Below are positions 23,401-57,500 of a stretch of DNA of 64,000 nt, piece by piece (position 1 is the first letter of the stretch; every line of letters begins with the position of its first letter). The notes below the pieces were generated by a model that worked only from the letters and a program-made list of their open reading frames with translations, ran no database searches and was not told where the DNA came from. The position numbers were made by a program, and so were the translations under genes. The stretch is from Podarcis gaigeae. Its lineage: Eukaryota. The DNA is taken from the NCBI GenBank assembly GCA_964106915.2, contig OZ066918.1; one strand, given 5' to 3'.

Positions 23401-26400
23401 ATCCACATTCTAGTTTCCTATTTTGTGTAGTATAAGGGCTGCTGACTGTAATTGTATTATTAGAGCATAAACTAGCATCTAAGGATTGTAGAAATCAATG
23501 GGACATACGTACTAGGCAAATGGAGGTAAGCACACAGGACTCCAAAGTGCATGTTCTTACAGATGCAGACTTCCACTTGCTTCACTGAGCATTTTAACTC
23601 GTACAGATTCACACAATCTGAAATGCTAAGTAGAAGCTGACACCCTGAGGGCTCAGTAACACATATTTCCTGGAATTGGCAGGGGTTGGAGGAAGGCAGC
23701 ACAACCCAAAGGAGACAGAGAGTGGAACTGAAGGCAAATGGAGCAAAACAGCAAAACAAAACAACTGTACCCACCAACCCAGAGCAGAAGGGTATTCTCT
23801 GGTCTACGCAGGCTAGAACCCAATGTGGCTAAAGACACTTCCCAGTTAAAAGGAGCAAGAATAATATCCAAATGCTGTTCTCTTCTACTGTGTAGCACAG
23901 GAGAATTTATATTGGTCAGATGTTCTACACCTTTGATCTTACCCAAATATAAGGCTGATCTTATTTCACAAGGAGAGAGGCAAAGGCTGAGAAGGATAAA
24001 TTGAAAAACTGGTCCAAGGTGAACTGCTGGAACATAGTTTATAGAATTGCTGTCACATCAGAATGCTTCCTCACATTAAGATGTGTAAAACACATTGTGA
24101 GATTCCCATTTGGTGCATGGGTGGTGCTTTGAAGCTGAAGGTTGCCAACAGAGAAAGCTCTTGGCAGAGAAGACAGATTTTTCTTTCAATCTCTACTGTT
24201 GTGATTGTAGAAGCCGAGAGGCCATTAAACCAGTTTGACTGGAGATTGCTGTGGGTAATCGCTCTTCCCTCTAATCACACAAAAATGAGGAAGTACTAGA
24301 AAGATTTTAGCTTAAAAATATGCAGTGTTGGACATGGCTCCACAGTGGAAAGTATTTAGTAGAGGGTGGTTCTCTGGGTGTTGCTGGACTAGAAGTCCCA
24401 TTATCCTTGGCCATTGGCCATGTTGCCTGGGTCTGATGGGAGGGCCACAGGTTCTCCAATTTAATGGAAACTGTGCTTAATATGAACGATGCAGTGGATA
24501 GGGTTGCCATATTTCAAAAAGTGAAAATCCAGACCGCTTTTTGGGGGCCAAAGTAGTTTTGCCGAAAGAGTTGTTGAACTTTTGGACGCTGCCAACATTG
24601 GTTGCCGTACATTGGGAATTTCCTGGACATTTCACCCAGACACTGCTTCTGGCTGTAGTATTCCGGGTATGTCCTGTAAATTCCAGACATATGGCAACCC
24701 TGCAGTGGATCAGAAATGGATGATGATAAGTATTGATAATAGAATCCTATTCTGCTGGCACAGCTGAGTCATATTTACAATTCAAGCTGCACCTCTTAGT
24801 CATTGGTTCCCATATGGAATCTCTCTCACTCTCTCATTTACCTGGAAGGAAGTGTAGCATGGAAGGTGCTTGTTGTACATGGGTAAAAGTCTGATCTGGT
24901 GCTCCACCCCCTTTTGATTTGGGCTCCACCCGTCACTGGCAGGTGGCCCCTGAATTGCTGCTCATGAGTTAGTGCAGCCTTTGGACTGAGAAAGGTTCCC
25001 CATTTCTGATCTAGACAGAACAAATTTGATAGGTGCCAGTGCTAAAATGTTTGTGGTAAATGAGGGGTAGGGATTCCTTTTGGCCTGGCGGAACAGATCT
25101 TTATTTCCCTCGACTGCATGGGCCAATGTTCGCTGGTGGGCAGGGTCACTCTTGCTGATCAGATGACTGACAGGTAGGCAGGGCCACTCATCTCTCAGAG
25201 TTAATCCATTGAGTGGGAAGAGGGGGGTTCAGCTAGTTGGGGTTCAGTCCTGCTGTCTGCAGGGCTCTACACCCAATGTGACTTACATGTAACAGGATCC
25301 CACTCATAACTCTGGCTATGTATCTAAAAAATACAGTTTCTTTTTCAGAAGGGTATTGACGGGCTTATTTAAATTGCAAGAAAACCTTCAAGCTGTTTTC
25401 TTTGAGCTAGTTCCACTGTGACATTTCGGCTTTACCAGTAAGCTTCAGAAACTCATCCCATGTGTGCAGGTATGTAAAAAAAATATTCTGCCCAAGTGAC
25501 ACAGCATGCATCTGGGTTATCTCATGAGCTGAGGCTGGATATGTGGATAGGATTATTTACCAGCAACTTGTGCATGTGCACAAATCTAACAAATATTTTG
25601 CATTAATTAATGTACCTATAGGATTCATTCTCCAAGCCATTTTGTGGTTGCTTAATATTGCATCAAACCTGGCTTTAGCTTCAGCATCTCACTTCCATAA
25701 GTGATAGATTTTGTTCAAACAGTTAAATCAAGGACCAAGTCTCTGTTCTACTGTACTGGAGAAAGCAGCTCTCTTAACCTCCTTTCATGTCCTGGGATTG
25801 TTCTCTTAAAAGCTTCCTTTTCCAACAGCACTGCATCATCCTCAGTAATTTCTGATTCACTTTGTTCTTGCTTCCCAGTATGGCAGGAGCTTTTAACTTG
25901 CCCTGCAGCCATTTTCCTCCTTTGCTGCAGGCAGAGGGCAGAGCATTTTGCTCTTTTGCAAGTTTTAACNNNNNNNNNNNNNNNNNNNNNNNNNNNNNNN
26001 NNNNNNNNNNNNNNNNNNNNNNNNNNNNNNNNNNNNNNNNNNNNNNNNNNNNNNNNNNNNNNNNNNNNNNNNNNNNNNNNNNNNNNNNNNNNNNNNNNNN
26101 NNNNNNNNNNNNNTTTCCAGAGCATCTGATTTCTTGGATCAGACAGATTATACCAAAAAATCTTCATTGATCAAATAATTACACTATGGTGCTAAATATT
26201 TTATGTGGAAGTTAAATATGTTTGGAGCTTACTCTCACACCAGAATTTTGGCTTCTCAGAGTTAATATGTTAAGGTTCCACCCTAGCACTGAACCTGAAA
26301 CAAATAACCTTTCATATTTATTCCACACATGTGCAAAGTTGCCTTATGGAGTAGTAGTAGTAGTTCATTTTTCCTGTTTACACTTGAGAAAACCAAGTTG

Positions 26401-48500: not shown

Positions 48501-51500
48501 GCCTGAGGCTTCAGTTGCATCTTGGAAGGAGAACAGTCTTATCCGGAATACACAAGCTCCCTTGGCATTGTGCTCTGATCGCTGGGTTTTGTCACTAGGG
48601 GGGGGGAGAGGAGGGGAGGGGTGATCAAGCCTCTCTCAATCCTCCTCCAAACACTGGTCTTGCTGTGTTTGACTCACAGGGAGGCAGAAACACTTGCTTT
48701 CAGAAAGATCAGCCCAGATTAGTTACCCTATTATAGCACTGAGAGATGTTCAGGGGGCTCGTTTTACAGTAATTTTGAAAAAGTATTGAGCCTTTCCTAG
48801 AGTGAACTAAGTTGTTAATCCTGGTTTGTTAATAGGTGGTTGTTTTCAGACGCTATAAGCAGACCCATGTAGTTCCCAAATGATGTTCATTTAAATGGTT
48901 TTGATTTAAATGTTTAGTAGCTGCTGATCTGTTTCAGTAAAGCTCCAACTGAAGATGAGTCAGAGCCATCCTAGAAGATCTTGGTCCCAGCTTGGACCAA
49001 AACCAACATTAGTGCAGAACATTCTGTTTATATATAGAATTCCCCTTGTTTATGCCCACAGTTTCCACAGGGGTAGACCTCTTGCAGCAAAACCAACAAA
49101 GAGCCTTGAGGCACATCAAAGACAAACACATTTATTATGACATAAGCTTTTGTGGACCTATAGTCCGCTTCATAAAATATATGAAGCCGAACATAGTCCA
49201 TGAAAACTTGTGCCATAATAAAATAGTTGGTCTTCAAGGAGCCACAAAACTATTGATTGTTCATTTGTGCTTCCCTCCCCCACTGTCCTTGGGCTTTTCA
49301 TGCATGGTGAAACTGTTCAGATGGGACCTTTCCATTGTATTGGAATCAGAGTTGGCCTTGTGCTTGGCTTTGCCTAACAGATATAAACTGAATTGGGACT
49401 TGGCTTTAGCCTCTGCCTCTCTTTCTTTTTCTGCATTCCAGAATGATATTGGTGGCAAGAAGATTCTCCAGAGGAAATGGACATCCTTCATGAAAGCAAG
49501 GTTGGCCTGCTATGTTCCTTACTATGAGGTACTGAAGGATGTTTTCAGTCTGGATGGTGGCGACTGGAGGAGCACCGTCTTCTATGCAACATTCACTTTA
49601 TCAGCACAGTGGTAAGCCAAGCACGCTAACGGCGTGTTGGGTACTCAAGTAACTGTAACCGTTCCGAAAAGATACATGGAGTCCATTGAATTACACAAGT
49701 TCCATGTGCTGCCACCAGCAAAAAAGACAAACTAAATGCTAGGGATTATTAGGTAATGGTACAGAACACAGCGCAGGACGTGTCACGGTACCCTTGAGTA
49801 CTGAATGTGGTTCTCAATCTCCTGCCTGCTGCATTGCAGAACTTGACTTGCAGTATGGTGCAGGACACACACACACACAAAAACAGATAGGCTGTTTAAG
49901 CAAGGGAACCTGGCCTTGCACATTTCAGCATTCCAGGGAGCATCTGCATTCACTTGGGCAAATTGGTTCAGTCTCTGTATTCCAAGGCAACAGGTATGGA
50001 TTCACCCCACTTCAGTGCCTGTTGTGGCACAATCCAAACATATGCCACACTGTTCAAAGCCTCATAAAAGACACCAAAGGAAAGTCAACTTGCACTGAAT
50101 GGAAAGAATGCTATTGTCAGTTGGTCCTCAGAGTAAAGAGGCTTTCAGCTGCTAAGACTGTGCTGGCTCTGCTAGTACCACCTGCTATATTCTCAGATAC
50201 CTTTGCCCTCTGCTTCTGAGTGAGGCAGGAGGCTTGCCCCTCTGTTTCCAAGGCTGGCCTGCCTGTGCTTTTAAGCTGGACGGGGTCCACTGATGCTTTC
50301 ATCCCACCTGAGCTCCAGTCAGTGGTGTGATGGTAGATGGAGGCTTTCAGTTTGGTTGCCAGCAAAATCCTCCTTGCCCTTGTAAGTATTTTGGCACTTG
50401 TGACTGATTCAGTTTGCCTGAGCGTTTCTTGCTGAGGGCAAGGAACAGATGGGACACTCTGAGCACTTTGTGAGACAAAAGTCCTATTGGTGAGCATCCG
50501 TAGAATAGATTAATAATAGCTGCTTATGCAGGAGGTGGTGTGGGATGAGAAGGGGAGTCAGCTTAGCATTTTGGAAGGGCTCACTTTGGCTTAATTGGGA
50601 GCAAGGGCCAAACTGTTCGCCATACGGATTTTAACCACAGCAATAAGCACTGTGCGACTTCACTGTGGACTGAGCCTAGTCTGAAGTCATAGCCAGCCTT
50701 TTGCATTTTCCTGTTAGTTTTTAGTGGTAGCATGAATTTTAACAAGTTGTCCTCGGCTAATTAGTAGCTTTGTGCTTGTAACATTTATCAAGTGGAAGGT
50801 TCACACTGGCAGCAAGATGGCACCCACTGAGCTACCATCCTCATGAGAGGGTAGCGGAACATCAGAGGCATTTATTAATGAGCACTGGCCGTTACATCTC
50901 AAAGGCTATTGAGAACGTACAGGGTATTTTGCATGTGGCCTTTTCGGGGATGTCAGGGGAATGGTTAAAGAGACAGAACTGGGGCAGAAGTGGCAGCTGG
51001 TTGTTGTTATTATGTGACGATGAAGGAAAACCAGGGGGCTTTGCAGGGCTGACAGTCTTCCCCACAGAATGACAGGAAATGAGGAAACCTCCAGGATTAC
51101 ACAGGAATATCCTGCTCGTGACAGAAAGTCATTTGACTCATTTGTCACAGAAGCAAAAGCTACCACTTACTCGGAATCTATTCTCTTGATCTGGCTTTGC
51201 ACTGAAAAGAATTTCAGAGAGCAGAGTGCGTAAAGGAGACCACTGCCAAACCCAGGGAGGAGTGCATAACTAAGAACTCACCATACAGCACAAAGCCCAG
51301 CAGGAGAAGCAAGCATTTGCAAGCATCAGCATGAATTAACACTACAGGGATAAAGGAGTCCAGTTGGAGATGGCCCAAAATATTTTGGTGTTTGAGAATG
51401 AAGATATAAATGTTGCTACTGTGACAGCAATTTGCTGTTGTTTAATGGTACCTCCAAAATCTGCTGCCTGGGGCAGGTGGACTTCACCCTGTCTAGTGGT

Positions 51501-54500
51501 GAATCCAGACCCCCCCCCCAAGTCCAGTATCTCTCATGCAGATAGGCCACACAGGTGCAAGGTAACGTTTTCCAAATACTGGCTGGAAGTTCATGGAGGG
51601 ATAGCAGGAAGACAGACGCAATGATAGCCAGTAAGTGGTAGCAAGGACAGGTGTGATATATATATTGATATATATATATATATTTGCTTTCGTAGATTTT
51701 CACGGGTACAGGAATGCAGGTTTTGGTGTCCTCGGGTGTCTTCCCGTGTAAAAGTTGGGGTGTCTAGGCGACGTTTCGACGAGGTCTCACTCGTCATCTT
51801 CAGGCTGGTGCTTTCGGCTTCTTGTTACTGGAACAGAGCGGGATCTCAATGTTTGAGTTCCTATAAATACTGTAGAGGGGGTGTGGTGTCTAGCCTCCAA
51901 TGTTCTGGGCAGAGAGGAAGTTCCCAGGCTAGTGTGCCTTTTCTTCTTTTGTTCCTTAATTACTTGAGAGATACCTTGAGTGATTTCTTGAGTGATATCC
52001 TGAGTACCACTTAGGTGGGTCATTAGGTGTGGATTAGTTGCTAAAGTCTTTGTGTCTTGACCTCTTGAACTTTGTGAAGAGTTTTCCTGAGAAGATGGCT
52101 GTATTGCACTTAGTTGTGCTTTGGCTTGGCTTCGTGTATAGGGGCGAGCTGTGGTTTTGTGGCTTGTGTCAGCCAGATCTGTGTAGGGATTGCAGGGGGG
52201 TGCAGCATCCGGTGCCCAGCCACGTACATTGGACAAACAAACAGACGAATAAATGCACGTATCGCAGAACACAAGAATGCCGTCAAAAAAGAAGAAAAAA
52301 CTTCCTCTCTTTTCCAACACATGAAAGAAACAGGACACGAAATTAATTTTGCAGATTCCAAATTGCTCTTTAACACGGAACATCACCACAAGAGAATAAT
52401 CATGGAAGCCATCGAGATAGAGAAACACCCTCACAACATGAACAAGCGTGACGACACATCCCGCTTGCCAGACATCTGGAAATTAGCCCTCCCCACAAAA
52501 ACTGACACCAGATCCAGAGGCACACAGAACGCCAACACCAATCAACCACACCAGACCCAAACCCAGACCCTCTCCACAGATGAATTACTGACACCATCCA
52601 GTAGCCAATCCATGGTGGCACCTCCGGATGCTGCACCCCCCTGCAATCCCTACACAGATCTGGCTGACACAAGCCACAAAACCACAGCTCGCCCCTATAC
52701 ACGAAGCCAAGCCAAAGCACAACTAAGTGCAATACAGCCATCTTCTCAGGAAAACTCTTCACAAAGTTCAAGAGGTCAAGACACAAAGACTTTAGCAACT
52801 AATCCACACCTAATGACCCACCTAAGTGGTACTCAGGATATCACTCAAGAAATCACTCAAGGTATCTCTCAAGTAATTAAGGAACAAAAGAAGAAAAGGC
52901 ACACTAGCCTGGGAACTTCCTCTCTGCCCAGAACATTGGAGGCTAGACACCACACCCCCTCTACAGTATTTATAGGAACTCAAACATTGAGATCCCGCTC
53001 TGTTCCAGTAACAAGAAGCCGAAAGCACCAGCCTGAAGATGACGAGTGAGACCTCGTCGAAACGTCGCCTAGACACCCCAACTTTTACACGGGAAGACAC
53101 CCGAGGACACCAAAACCTGCATATATATATATATATATATATTTCATAAAATGTATACATCACTAGATTATTGAAAGAAAAAAAAATACTCAAAGCGGTT
53201 TATAGAGAGAATAAAACAATGCTGGGGATACAGCTGCAAAGAGAGGGCAGGGACCCTGAGAGAGTCTTGTTCAGATACAGAATACCAGGACTGGCTCCAG
53301 GTTTTAAAGCCAGAGTGCCAGCTGGCAGGCCCCAGCAGACCTACTCGGCAGTGGCAATGGGGTAGCATGTACCAGGCAGCACCACTGCAATGCAGTGCTG
53401 AGCAGCTGGGCCCATAATGATTCAGAGCAGTGCTGCATTGGGGGGCATTGCAGAAAATTTTAAATAGCAGCTCAGATACAGCCTCCCAACAAAGGGGTGG
53501 GGGTGGGAGGCATAAGCATAGCTGGGGGAAATTCTGCTGGCGCTCCAGCAGCTGCGCCAGCCTTCTGCATAGGGAACTCAAGTGAGCCACTTCATCTTGG
53601 TGCAGGGACTGATTACTCTTCCAAGCTCCGCCTGGCAGCAGAGAGTGAAAGGGATTAAAGGTCCCTGTCACTCGGACCTTTGCACAGTTTATGGCACCAG
53701 AGCTTTTGGCTGCCTCAAGCAAAGGTTCTCAGAGGCAAGTGGAGTCTTGGGTAGTGGATGACAGTGCCTTGCTGGCCAGATGCACAGGAGGACAGAACAA
53801 CTGCGCTTTTAACTGTTGAGTAGAAGAGGGAAATTCAGGAGGTGTAGCTGCTGAAACTCCCTCTTCCATACAACCATTAAACTTACAGGAGCCCCATCCT
53901 CTTGTGGATCTGGACACTCCAGATCTATAGTGAGGTATATAAGAACTGTTTGTACCATCAGCTGCTCATGCTTTTTAAAATAACTTGTTCAATTACTTTT
54001 AATATAAATGTGTAAAACATTTTAAAACTTTTACATATGCGTGTTTCTCTATATCCACTCCGGTCACCTAGCAGGTACTCACTCTGAATAGCTTCTTTTG
54101 TTCTCCCTTACCAAAGGCTGCTAGTCTGGCTCCACTGACATTCTGCCAAAACAGAGTGGGGGTCAGCAACCTTTTTCAGCAGTGGGCAGGTCCACTGTCC
54201 CTCAGACCATGTGGTGGGCCAGACTATATTTTGAAAAAATATATATATGAATGAATTCCTATGCCCCACAAATAACCCAGAGATGCATTTTAAATAAAAG
54301 CACACATTCTGCTCATATAAAAACACGCTGATTCCCAGACCGTCCGCGGGCCGGATTGAGAAGGCGATTGGGCCGCATCCAGCCCACGGGCCTTAGGTTG
54401 TCTACCCCTGCATTAGAAAGTTCTAGGTATAGTCCCTATAAAGTGGCAGTGCCTGGGCAGCCAACTGCTTGAGAAAAAGGTTGCTAGAATGCTGCCTTAC

Positions 54501-57500
54501 TGGTAGAAACAACTGCTGCTAACTGCTAGACTTAAGAACCCTGTAGTCATGACCTAACTCTCCACAGCCAAGATAGATTTTGCAGCTGATCTTGTGGCCT
54601 TTTTTTTTTTAAGTCTACTGCCTGTCCCTGAAACAAGAAATGTTTTCTGCAGAGAAGGGCAGGCATGCTTCATTCACGGGCCAGGTTTTATCCAATCTTA
54701 GGCTCTATCTAATCCGTTTATCTGGAATGGGAGAATAGTTTTCCTGTAAGTCAAGTGTGCTGGTGACGATACCCAGGATTTATCGCATTCTCCTCCAACA
54801 TGCAGTGTCATAGACTTTGTTGAGCCATCTGGGTTTAGTTCATGAAACCTGTTCCCTATTGGTCAAACCAGATGATCTTCAGATTCCTTGTGGCCCTATA
54901 GTGCTACAAGGATCGTTTTATGTTGAGGGTGGGGAGCATGTGGCTCTCCCATCATTTCTGCCCACTGACCATGCTGCTTGGGGCTGATGGGAGTTAAAGA
55001 GTACAGCAATATCTGGAGCACCACAGGTTTCCCATGCCTGGTTTCTGTGAACCCAGAGGAATTAGCAAGAAGTGGAAGGCTCTGGTCCTGTGCTATGACC
55101 ATGTCACCATGCCTTTCAGGAGGAGCATAGAGGTGTCTGCCATCTGCCGGTACAACATCTCTGAAGTGCGGGCAGCCTTCGAAGGGACTTACATGGAATA
55201 CCAGGACTCCTCCCGCAAGTGGTCCCAGTACACCGGGGAGGTGCCAGTGCCCCGGCCAGGATCAGTAAGTTACTTACCCAACTTAATAGCCCTTAAACAT
55301 CATTGATAATATTCTATTTAAGTCAGTTCGGAATAATGGCTGGCTTTTAGTTTTTGAACCTGAGTTTTGTTGGGTTGGTGCTGGAGGTTTTAATCAGTGT
55401 CAGACTTTATGGCTGGATTTTATCTACTGCTGTGTTGGTTTTTCTGATTTATAGTTTTGCTGTTCATTTTAATTTTATTTATTTGTCTGGCTGCATGTCA
55501 CCTAGAGAACAGTTTTTTATTAGGTGACTCATGCACAGAATAGCATAAATAAATAAATAATATCTTACTTTGCCTCTTGTCTCAGATAAAGGAGGCGGGA
55601 GGCACTCTCTTCCACCCAAGGAACACAAGAGTGCTCATAACTAAAATAGACTAATATGCACCATTTCATACTGAGGGTGAAGGTTGAGGGCTCCCCTACC
55701 CCCAAAAAATCCATACCAGCAGAAAAGTAGATGCTCCAATTAGGCTTTTCACAGGCATTCTAGGTTTGAGTTGCATGTAGGGTTGTGTTCAGTCTCTTAC
55801 CTGCAGATTGAAATACAACAAGCCTGTCAACTGGTGTATCAGAAGGGGTATTTGTTTATATGCTTTAGCTGTTAGAGCAGGGGTGGAGAACCTGTGGTCC
55901 TCCAGCTGTTGTTGGACCCCAGCTTCCATCAGTCTCAGCTAGCATGGCCAAAGGTCAAGGATAATGGGAGCTGAAGACCAGAAGCATCTTGAAGCTAGGT
56001 GTGCAAATAACACCCATTTCTCCTCTGCAGTGCATCACCAGTCGGGCTCGCAAGAATGGCTACAACACCTCCCAGGACCTGCCCAATGGTGTGCTGGATT
56101 TTATCAAGCTCCATCCACTGATGCATGAAGAGGTGAAGCCTGCGGATGGAGTCCCCCTGTTGGTGAAGAAAAATGCGGTTTATACCCAAGTAGCTGTAGA
56201 CAGAGTCGGAGCCCTGGATGGGCGAGTGTATGACATGCTCTTCTTGGGAACGGGTAGGTGTGTTTGCATTCCCCGTGCATATCTAAGTGTCTGTGTGTCC
56301 TCATCTGTTAGGACAGAACACACATCTAGGGAGGTTACTTGTTGTTCTCACCCCTCTCAACCTTGTATCGGAATGTAGAGGAGACAAAGAGTGCAACCCT
56401 ATTATGCTTTCTAAGCCTTCCAAACCTGTGTAGCTGAATCTGTGGTGTTTTTTTTAAATGAGAAACAGTTGGGGTTTCTGTATGCTGCAGAGCTTCCCTT
56501 TTCCTAAGCTGTTCCAGTGCCACTCAGTTCTAATTGACAGCTGCAAACAGACATACCTGTAAACAGGTATGGTTGCTTTCCTCCCCCCCCCCCCCCAGGT
56601 CATCCTTGCTTTTTCTGGCTTTTGCTCTTCAAAGGACACAGAGAATCAAAGGTTGATTATCTGTTCTTCTTTGCCCCTTTTCCGTCACTTAGGCAGGCTT
56701 TGTGGGTTTTTGTCTCTCTCAAACATAAAAGGTTATATTCCTCTTAAGTTCTACTCCAAGTGATGCTTTTTTGATGACAAAACCCCAGCATCAAATCAGT
56801 TCTGGAAAATTGCTCTGAGAAAGGGAGTGATGGTTTCATGATTGCCAGTGAAGTTCCACTATAGAACTTGGGCAGTTACAACTTTGTGCCTGTTTAGAAT
56901 TCAGTTGAACTCCTCTCAGAACTACAAATCCCATTATTCTGGGGAGAGGAAAAGAACAGGAAAAGAAGTGACAAAACTGTTGTCCTGCAGCATAGACTGG
57001 CTCTACAGTGTTCAGGCACACTTAGGCTTCTTGTAAATCTGGAAGTAGACAGATCCTCTCACTTGCCACCCAGACCCTACACAGGGCTAGCACCTTGAAT
57101 TTTGCCTGCATGACTGATGTCAAGAATGAGACTGTGTTCGAAATTGCCTTTTTAATGTTTACTCCCCTTTAACAGGTAATGGCTGGATTCACAAGGCTGT
57201 GGTCATTGGTTCCATGGTCCACATCATCGAGGAGATCCAGGTCTTCAAAGCCCCCCAGCCTGTGGAGAACCTTGTCATCTCTAAAAAGCAGGTACATGTG
57301 GCTTCAGACCCCACCCAAATGCTCTTGGTGAAGGCACACATGCACTGTGAAAAAGCAAAGCACCAACAAGGGTGCAGTAAACAAATGTTGGGAACAGGCC
57401 TATGTCAGCTGGAGAACCAATTCAGGATAGTCTGGACTTCATTGCTAACCTATGTCCTGCACACTTCTCTCTACCAAAGTTGTAAGATAGTCACCTTTTT

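What the first reader, a model, noticed from the sequence alone, without database searches (positions are those of the whole stretch)
53028..53072. Two outward-facing minimal hammerhead ribozymes, one per strand, in a host intron
Seen: CUGAAGA-U-[GACGAG ugagac CUCGUC]-GAAAC-GUC on + at 53033-53066 and on - at 51770-51803. Helix III is reduced to the palindrome ACGU, and helix I has only about 2 clear pairs. Known: PLE pLTRs encode minimal hammerheads thought to cleave as dimers through the palindromic helix III. Inference: the + copy is transcribed within SEMA4G pre-mRNA, but its exact antisense is made ~1.2 kb earlier in the same molecule. That antisense should sequester it, giving a self-silencing ribozyme arrangement that may make the insertion tolerable to the host.
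Basis: partly seen in the sequence, partly recalled or inferred. Interest (0 to 1): 0.7.

Follow-up and report, generated by a model that had tools for sequence, protein, structure and literature searches.

The report
Penelope insertion with mirrored hammerhead ends
The two self-cutting-RNA motifs are one sequence, mirrored because a truncated Penelope-type jumping gene sits head-to-head with a copy of its own end in an intron of a lizard SEMA4G gene; this layout is already described, and although the mirror copy is predicted to bury the motif in a long RNA hairpin, that is likely a by-product of insertion rather than a safety device.

Summary
Observation confirmed. A minimal hammerhead (HHR) motif lies at + 53033-53066 and - 51803-51770. 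The two are one sequence, carried by a perfect 499-nt inverted repeat (51714-52212 / 52624-53122). The repeat bounds a 1.44-kb, 5'-truncated Poseidon-type Penelope-like element (PLE) with a 32-nt tail on one arm, inserted in (TA)n inside the 5.5-kb SEMA4G intron 49612-55119 of a lacertid lizard. The family is young and high-copy.

Opposite-strand HHR pairs, the inverted 5'-truncated partner, the tail and the ATG inside the HHR are all published for PLEs. This scan has also met the layout in other genomes.

Folding supports sequestration: stem II probability falls from at least 0.97 to 0 when the antisense arm is present. The tolerance claim is unsupported. Lone minimal HHRs were reported inactive in vitro, and the anole relative needs element protein. 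This copy's stem I is predicted unformed even without antisense. Among other family copies, inverted-arm length varies from 15 to 372 nt, and 4 of 13 arms do not cover the HHR. Cleavage was not tested here. The insertion is ordinary, with a cheap genome-wide test left open.

The parts
49443..49611 (+). SEMA4G coding exon (aa ~269-326 of P0011) upstream of the host intron
   Evidence: tblastn; AG/GT ends read; covered by an X15 contig that continues into the next exon
49612..55119 (+). Host intron, 5508 nt, GT..AG; the insertion lies about 2.0 kb from each splice site
55120..55264 (+). SEMA4G coding exon (aa 327-374 of P0011) downstream of the host intron
   Evidence: tblastn (97.9% over 48 aa); sequence
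51654..51683 (.). Left (TA)n target remnant, interrupted by one TG; its border with the tail is ambiguous by 1-2 nt
51682..51713 (-). PLE 'tail', about 32 nt, on the left arm only; ORF positions +85 to about +116, continuing the N-terminal frame
   Evidence: 30-40-bp tail described in PMC8557442 and PMC3846280; anole RT start at +111-118
51714..52212 (-). Inverted 5'-truncated copy (left arm, 499 nt), antisense in SEMA4G pre-mRNA
   Evidence: 0 mismatches to 52624-53122
51770..51803 (-). Minimal hammerhead motif, - strand copy
51862..51869 (+). TATA-consensus 8-mer pointing antisense to the element (mirror at 52967-52974 on -); untested
   Evidence: 67 of 2000 dinucleotide shuffles of the arm hold one on either strand; noticed post hoc
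52212..52213 (.). Inversion junction; a 4-nt match between the two sides lies 3 nt beyond the observed joint
52213..53049 (+). Uninterrupted 3' end (278 aa) of the PLE ORF: GIY-YIG endonuclease starting inside the GIY-YIG motif, then a low-complexity tail; the stop TGA (53047-53049) lies in HHR loop II
   Evidence: (98% over 97 aa to RT+EN protein P0002)
52624..53122 (+). Right arm: end of ORF plus pLTR, ending at ORF +82..+84 without tail
   Evidence: loose ends at the mirror position 51714 run into (TA)n in 4 of 4 runs
53033..53066 (+). Minimal type I hammerhead motif: core 53033-53039, extra U 53040, stem II 53041-53046/53053-53058, GAAA 53059-53062, palindrome 53062-53065, predicted cut after C53066; ORF ATG at 53039-53041
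   Evidence: numbering and cut site from the hammerhead consensus (recalled, and as in PMC4209133 and PMC11167929)
53121..53142 (.). Right (TA)11 target remnant

Best explanation
This is a 5'-truncated copy of a young Poseidon-type Penelope-like retrotransposon with an inverted copy of its own 3' end, and the two hammerhead motifs are that one end mirrored; the sense motif is predicted to be buried in a 499-bp hairpin in SEMA4G pre-mRNA, likely as an unselected by-product, because a lone minimal hammerhead would likely not cut anyway. Inferred mechanism of origin: the element's GIY-YIG endonuclease nicked both strands of a (TA)n tract. Each 3'-OH primed reverse transcription of element RNA, one from ORF +116 (tailed left arm, 531 nt copied) and one from about +84 (right arm, 910 nt copied). 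The two truncated cDNA ends were then joined head to head. The HHR's job would be in the element's own RNA, as a protein-assisted or dimeric ribozyme, and not in the host transcript. The likely consequence for the host is an intronic double-stranded RNA (a possible A-to-I editing or small-RNA substrate) that leaves with the intron.
For: Shown: perfect inverted repeat, one-sided tail and TA flanks. The EN domain is 98% identical over 97 aa to an RT+GIY-YIG protein. [quoted passage not shown] The tail ends at about +116, inside the anole RT start window +111-118; that protein nicks and extends both strands of AT-rich DNA. The family is high-copy and young: summed contig depth 0.3-1.0 million over the HHR bin against 13-154 in most flank bins of X1, X3 and X4; 3175 of 4740 laid X1 records are 99%+ alike (depth is not a copy number). 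Of 14 listed skip-joints, 13 join antisense arm to sense body at other breakpoints, with 0-5 nt fitting both sides; implied arm lengths are 15-372 nt and 9 of 13 cover the HHR. Predicted: HHR stretch with its antisense -95 kcal/mol, against -8.6 for stem II alone and -20.3 for a two-copy fold with helix III. Literature.
Against: No cleavage assay was done on this family; monomer inactivity is borrowed from a schistosome motif and the anole motif. With many family copies and family sequence present in a putative RNA run (X15 depth about 1000-1800), activation in trans by element protein or other transcripts is conceivable. Retrozymes are depleted from Xenopus introns, and a fast intronic hammerhead lowers host mRNA, so a hazard is not excluded. 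The joints are 14 of 40 rows (25 hidden, 1 is the window's own repeat), rest on sides of 21-29 letters, are of unknown genomic context (not known to be intronic), and only breakpoints within 52213-52623 were detectable. The two-primer origin competes with the published self-priming-on-antisense-template idea.
Confidence: 0.85

Rival explanations
1. Self-silencing tolerance: the sense HHR would cut SEMA4G pre-mRNA, perhaps when helped in trans by element protein or another copy, and the upstream antisense arm prevents this, so inverted copies survive preferentially in introns.
For: Sequestration is strongly predicted and co-transcriptional, and it works in either orientation of insertion by symmetry. 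The anole HHR does cleave with protein. Fast intronic ribozymes reduce mRNA. Retrozymes are depleted in introns.
Against: Monomer min-HHR inactive and dimers weak; no reads at the cut site in anole RNA-seq; stem I P<=0.003 without antisense. Arm lengths are not tied to the HHR. The inverted partner is generic, and also occurs in Naiad PLEs that lack canonical HHRs. One locus cannot show selection.
Confidence: 0.07
2. The biologically relevant product is the hairpin itself: host read-through makes a 499-bp dsRNA that is diced into small RNAs and silences the family in trans, so the copy acts as a host-driven repressor locus.
For: Penelope copies with long inverted repeats give siRNAs matching the inverted regions in Drosophila (PMC3681739). 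The perfect duplex is predicted here, and the gene is expressed and spliced in a putative RNA run.
Against: No small-RNA data here. Those siRNAs did not silence Penelope efficiently. [quoted passage not shown]
Confidence: 0.12
3. The perfect inverted repeat is an assembly artefact of a high-copy family.
For: Zero mismatches over 499 nt. None of the listed contig pieces bridges the 52212/52213 junction or the flank junctions (8319 pieces hidden).
Against: The arms differ by the one-sided tail, whose end matches the published RT start window. The same junction type occurs at 13 other breakpoints at about single-copy depth. The layout is the textbook one.
Confidence: 0.04

Closest known systems
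PAc / Poseidon_Ac, Penelope-Poseidon clade PLE of Anolis carolinensis (Frangieh et al. 2024, PMC11167929)
   Same: C-terminal GIY-YIG EN after RT (in P0002); HHR in the pLTR with the ORF start codon at the start of stem II; same core and GAAAC-GUC end; cut 28 versus 29 nt into the ORF; tail ending at about +116 versus RT start +111-118; AT-rich target.
   Different: Different family: stem II, loop II and N-terminal peptide differ in sequence. Helix I has 2 clear pairs here against 3 in PAc by my reading of the printed template. Here the ORF runs through the whole pLTR and stops in loop II; whether PAc does so could not be checked because the .gbk supplement is unreadable.
Minimal type I hammerheads of metazoan PLEs (Cervera and de la Pena 2014, PMC4209133)
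   Same: Extra nucleotide between 9 and 10.1, G10.1-C11.1 pair, long stem II, palindromic 15.2-16.2, no loop III. The paper reports dual min-HHRs on opposite strands about 100-700 bp apart, and motifs in reptiles.
   Different: Spacing here is 1.2 kb; helix I is shorter (2 bp, like the D. virilis variant) than the 4-5 bp of the schistosome motifs. In the parts read, the paper does not discuss antisense masking in host pre-mRNA.
Canonical EN+ PLE insertion with inverted 5'-truncated partner and 30-40-bp tail (Arkhipova et al. 2013, PMC3846280; Craig et al. 2021, PMC8557442)
   Same: Inverted repeats flanking the unit, head-to-head junction, tail on one end only, microsatellite target.
   Different: No palindrome at the junction; a target-site duplication cannot be read inside (TA)n; the inverted arm (499 nt) reaches well into the ORF's low-complexity 3' end.
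[quoted passage not shown]
   Same: Hammerhead motif in a vertebrate intron, sense to the host gene.
   Different: Those are conserved, domesticated motifs (canonical fold recalled). This is a minimal motif in a recent, high-copy insertion with no sign of domestication.

Membership tests
EN+ Penelope-like element (Penelope/Poseidon clade) | ORF with RT followed by C-terminal GIY-YIG endonuclease | tested here: met
   The window keeps only the EN part; it is 98% identical over 97 aa to P0002, which has Pfam RVT_1 (E 4e-16) then GIY-YIG (E 1e-3, below the curated cutoff). The window fragment alone gives no GIY-YIG hit because it starts inside the motif.
EN+ Penelope-like element (Penelope/Poseidon clade) | pLTR that includes the first codons of the ORF, with inverted 5'-truncated partner and optional 30-40-bp tail | tested here: met
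   definition
EN+ Penelope-like element (Penelope/Poseidon clade) | Placement in the Penelope/Poseidon clade by RT phylogeny | not tested
   No tree built; assignment rests on HHR/ATG/tail geometry shared with PAc
Minimal type I hammerhead of PLEs | Core CUGAnGA ... GAAA ... NUH with extra nt before G10.1-C11.1 | tested here: met
Minimal type I hammerhead of PLEs | Stable stem II and palindromic helix III for dimer formation | tested here: met
   Stem II P 0.97-0.999 in sense-only folds; ACGU; two-copy fold -20.3 versus 2 x -8.6 kcal/mol
Minimal type I hammerhead of PLEs | Helix I | tested here: inconclusive
   2 clear pairs, P 0.001-0.003; a 2-bp helix I is reported for D. virilis
Minimal type I hammerhead of PLEs | Covariation of stem II among relatives | tested here: inconclusive
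   2 of 29 distant PLE loci carry the motif; 4 of 6 pairs show changes on both sides over 3 sequences, but these rows were picked by a descriptor that demands pairing. Within the family no variant at 5% or more was listed in the HHR (57 rows hidden).
Minimal type I hammerhead of PLEs | Self-cleavage as dimer or with element protein | not testable with these tools
   needs an assay
Rfam hammerhead families | Covariance-model score at gathering threshold | tested here: not met
   No hammerhead family hit at gathering or at E<=10; the motif lacks helix III/loop III and most of helix I
Non-LTR retrozyme | Non-coding tandem direct repeats, each unit with an HHR | tested here: not met
   Copies are inverted, not tandem, and the element is coding; definition
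Antisense-masked (self-silencing) ribozyme under selection | Ribozyme active when unmasked, and masked copies favoured in introns | not testable with these tools
   No genome held; masking itself predicted

The most novel reading that the evidence does not exclude
Inverted-arm formation is what lets Penelope-like elements colonise genes. The element's hammerhead, switched on in trans by the element's own protein, would cut host pre-mRNA, and copies whose inverted arm covers the hammerhead are immune in either orientation. Intronic copies across squamate genomes would then be filtered for arm length.
Probability: 0.07. Interest if true: 0.65.

Novelty: new member of a known kind. Interest (0 to 1): 0.2.

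Why it matters
As it stands it matters little: it is one of many young PLE insertions with the textbook layout. It is a clean genomic match to the two reverse-transcription start sites measured for the anole element (tailed and tail-less end on opposite target strands), which favours a two-primer origin of PLE inverted repeats. If the masking idea were true, it would give the first in vivo consequence for PLE hammerheads, whose role is still described as unknown (PMC7761336), and a new rule for which retroelement insertions genes tolerate. A young high-copy lizard family with variable arm lengths makes that directly testable from one assembly.

Tried and rejected
Rfam scans: no hammerhead hit at gathering score over the whole window or at E<=10 over 51500-53300 (7 unrelated weak hits). 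Fold z-scores of the motif are unremarkable (-0.2 to -1.2), so stability alone does not single it out.

No whole genome is held, so intron-versus-intergenic statistics and the empty site in this assembly could not be examined. Sequencing runs: no RNA holder is listed on record. Presence or absence of this insertion in X1, X3, X4 and X15 was not resolved, because contigs are cut at the TA tract 51651-51694; for the same reason the tailed end of other copies was not visible. X15 shows 31 A>G/T>C against 14 C>T/G>A places (X4: 22 against 19), but with a different species label and no paired DNA it is not evidence of editing.

Viral contigs held no relative. Of 29 metagenome loci at 25-55% identity, 27 gave no canonical-core HHR. 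One variant-core hit in L026 was dropped as lacking a fitting cleavage triplet.

Retrozyme and domesticated intronic HHR were considered and rejected (inverted, coding, young). A target-site duplication could not be read inside (TA)n.

Paper searches for an antisense-masking proposal found none in the held library; subscription papers are not covered. Lunse et al. 2017 on dimer cleavage is not held (title seen only in a reference list). The anole paper's figure supplements gave almost no text and its .gbk file is unreadable, which bears on the exact second RT start site and on where the PAc ORF ends.

Full report
Observation. The motif described is present at + 53033-53066 and identically at - 51803-51770. 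A minimal-hammerhead descriptor finds, at stem II of 6 bp or more, only these two places in 64 kb, against 0.04 expected per simulated window (100 simulations). Stem II is the dominant local fold (P 0.97-0.999 in sense-only context). Helix III is the palindrome ACGU, and helix I has two clear pairs with predicted probability 0.001-0.003. Rfam does not recognise the motif. The two motifs are one event: both lie in a 499-nt inverted repeat, 51714-52212 and 52624-53122, with no mismatch and 411 nt between the arms.

What the element is. On +, 52213-53049 is an open frame of 278 codons. Its first 97 aa are 98% identical to a 735-aa Podarcis muralis protein (P0002) with RVT_1 followed by GIY-YIG. 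The frame runs through the whole pLTR and stops at 53047-53049, in loop II of the HHR. A second frame starts at the ATG 53039-53041, at the start of stem II. The right arm ends at ORF +82..+84 on (TA)11. The left arm carries about 32 more nt (51682-51713, to about +116) and then (TA)n. This is a 5'-truncated copy with an inverted 5'-truncated partner and a one-sided tail, the layout described for EN+ PLEs (passages of PMC8557442; passages of PMC3846280). Pairs of min-HHRs on opposite strands 100-700 bp apart were reported in 2014 (PMC4209133, parts 1-2 of 4 read). The anole Poseidon element has the same HHR core and the ATG at the start of stem II. Its cut is at +29 by my count on the printed template, against +28 here, and reverse transcription starts at +111-118 and at a second site bounding the tail (PMC11167929, parts 1-3 of 4 read).

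Host context. The gene is SEMA4G on + (98% to P. muralis over the last exon; exons mapped). The insertion is in the middle of the 5508-nt intron 49612-55119, about 2.0 kb from each splice site. A contig of run X15 (RNA is the tool's guess; different species label) joins the two flanking exons.

Family. I laid 4 of the 24 listed runs on 49400-52623. Summed depth over the HHR bin is 0.3-1.0 million in X1, X3 and X4, against 13-154 in most flank bins. This is not a copy number but points to thousands of copies, and 3175 of 4740 laid X1 records are 99%+ alike. Loose ends at 51714 run into (TA)n in 4 of 4 runs (25, 6, 10 and 1 contigs), so the tail-less end and the TA target are family traits. Of 40 joints, 15 are shown. 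One is the window's own repeat, one is an internal deletion, and 13 join antisense arm to sense body at other breakpoints. Their implied arms are 15-372 nt; 9 of 13 cover the whole HHR complement, 1 ends inside it and 3 end before it. These joints have sides of 21-29 letters and unknown genomic context. Whether this particular insertion is fixed or polymorphic could not be read. Among 29 distant PLE loci, 2 carry a motif with the same core. L001 has the same 6-bp/6-nt geometry 55 nt after the endonuclease match. Four of 6 stem II pairs change on both sides across the three sequences, but the rows were chosen by a pairing descriptor, so this is weak.

Is the ribozyme masked? In the model, yes. 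With both arms, stem II has probability 0.0 and arm-to-arm pairs 0.999 or more. In simulated growing transcripts the right arm is unpaired at 52650 but zipped by 52700 and stays so through the HHR. The 45-nt HHR stretch with its antisense gives -95 kcal/mol, against -8.6 for stem II and -20.3 for a two-copy fold with helix III. A transcript starting downstream of about 51800 would leave stem II free.

Does masking matter? Probably not. A single schistosome min-HHR gave no detectable cleavage, and dimers or trimers little. The anole HHR cleaves only with element protein, is not needed for insertion in vitro, and left no read ends at its cut site. The pre-mRNA has one sense copy, with a marginal helix I. 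The inverted partner also occurs in Naiad PLEs that lack canonical HHRs, and arm length in this family is not tied to the HHR. Slow hammerhead cleavage in an intron was reported compatible with splicing, whereas fast cleavage was not (passages of PMC2995048 citing Dye 2006 and Fong 2009). On the other side, an engineered fast hammerhead in an intron lowers mRNA (passages of PMC12069562), retrozymes are depleted from Xenopus introns (part 1 and passages of the 2026 preprint), and family sequence is abundant in a putative RNA run, so activation in trans cannot be excluded. I put adaptive masking at about 7%.

Mechanism of origin (inferred). The anole protein nicks and extends both strands of AT-rich DNA and starts at two sites. 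Here the left arm would be cDNA primed from the top strand starting at +116, and the right arm cDNA primed from the bottom strand starting near +84. Their truncated ends would be joined head to head. A 4-nt match lies 3 nt beyond the observed joint, and other joints show 0-5 nt fitting both sides. The published alternative is self-priming on an antisense template. The likelier effect on the host is a long intronic dsRNA. Inverted Penelope copies yield siRNAs in Drosophila (passages of PMC3681739), and long perfect dsRNAs are purged from mRNAs but not from pre-mRNAs (abstract of PMC7006430).

Novelty. Every structural feature is published. Five searches of the held library found no statement of antisense masking of a PLE hammerhead in host pre-mRNA, so the idea seems unstated, but it is also unsupported by this single locus. 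Earlier notes of this scan describe the same layout in other genomes (35 findings in at least 7 genomes, 8 shown) and none with similar sequence. Verdict: real motif, new member of a known kind, interest 0.2.

Noticed in passing
window 53039-53049: The HHR sequence does triple duty: the long ORF ends in loop II (TGA 53047-53049) while the same ORF's start codon (53039-53041, other frame) begins stem II, so in a tandem array successive ORFs would overlap by 11 nt inside the ribozyme.
   Followed up: partly
window 51862-51892 (+), mirror 52944-52974 (-): A TATA-consensus 8-mer points antisense to the element, with a pyrimidine-A step 30 nt downstream; 67 of 2000 shuffles hold such a box. If it fires from the left arm, the transcript would start past the anti-HHR and leave the sense HHR unmasked; from the right arm it would run antisense to SEMA4G. 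Bidirectional pLTR promoters were suggested in PMC3846280.
   Followed up: partly
window 52248-52253: One AATAAA in host-sense orientation lies in the 411-nt loop of the predicted hairpin; a possible cryptic intronic poly(A) signal, or chance.
   Followed up: no
window 52510-53049: The C-terminal low-complexity part of the ORF repeats a short TRS-type peptide motif several times; the relatives P0004, P0006 and P0007 also carry it near their C-termini. A 12/24-nt tandem repeat lies at 52831-52877.
   Followed up: no
P0003, P0005, P0008, P0009: The EN fragment is 68-79% identical to pieces in agamid and snake protein records, including fragments inside annotated host proteins (an acyl-CoA thioesterase and an olfactory receptor), and 58-69% to unnamed Logan proteins. 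The former may be mis-annotated or exonised PLE pieces; the latter may reflect wide spread of the family.
   Followed up: no
L013:122-175: Min-HHR with a 6-bp helix I and a longer palindromic helix III segment, upstream of a distant PLE ORF.
   Followed up: partly
window about 25970-26115: The window holds 144 N, seen as a run of X in the frames at 25701-26170: an assembly gap.
   Followed up: no
window 49094-49259: Imperfect inverted repeat (64-nt arms, 70%) within a 200-codon open frame that runs into the SEMA4G exon; probably an old small transposon.
   Followed up: no
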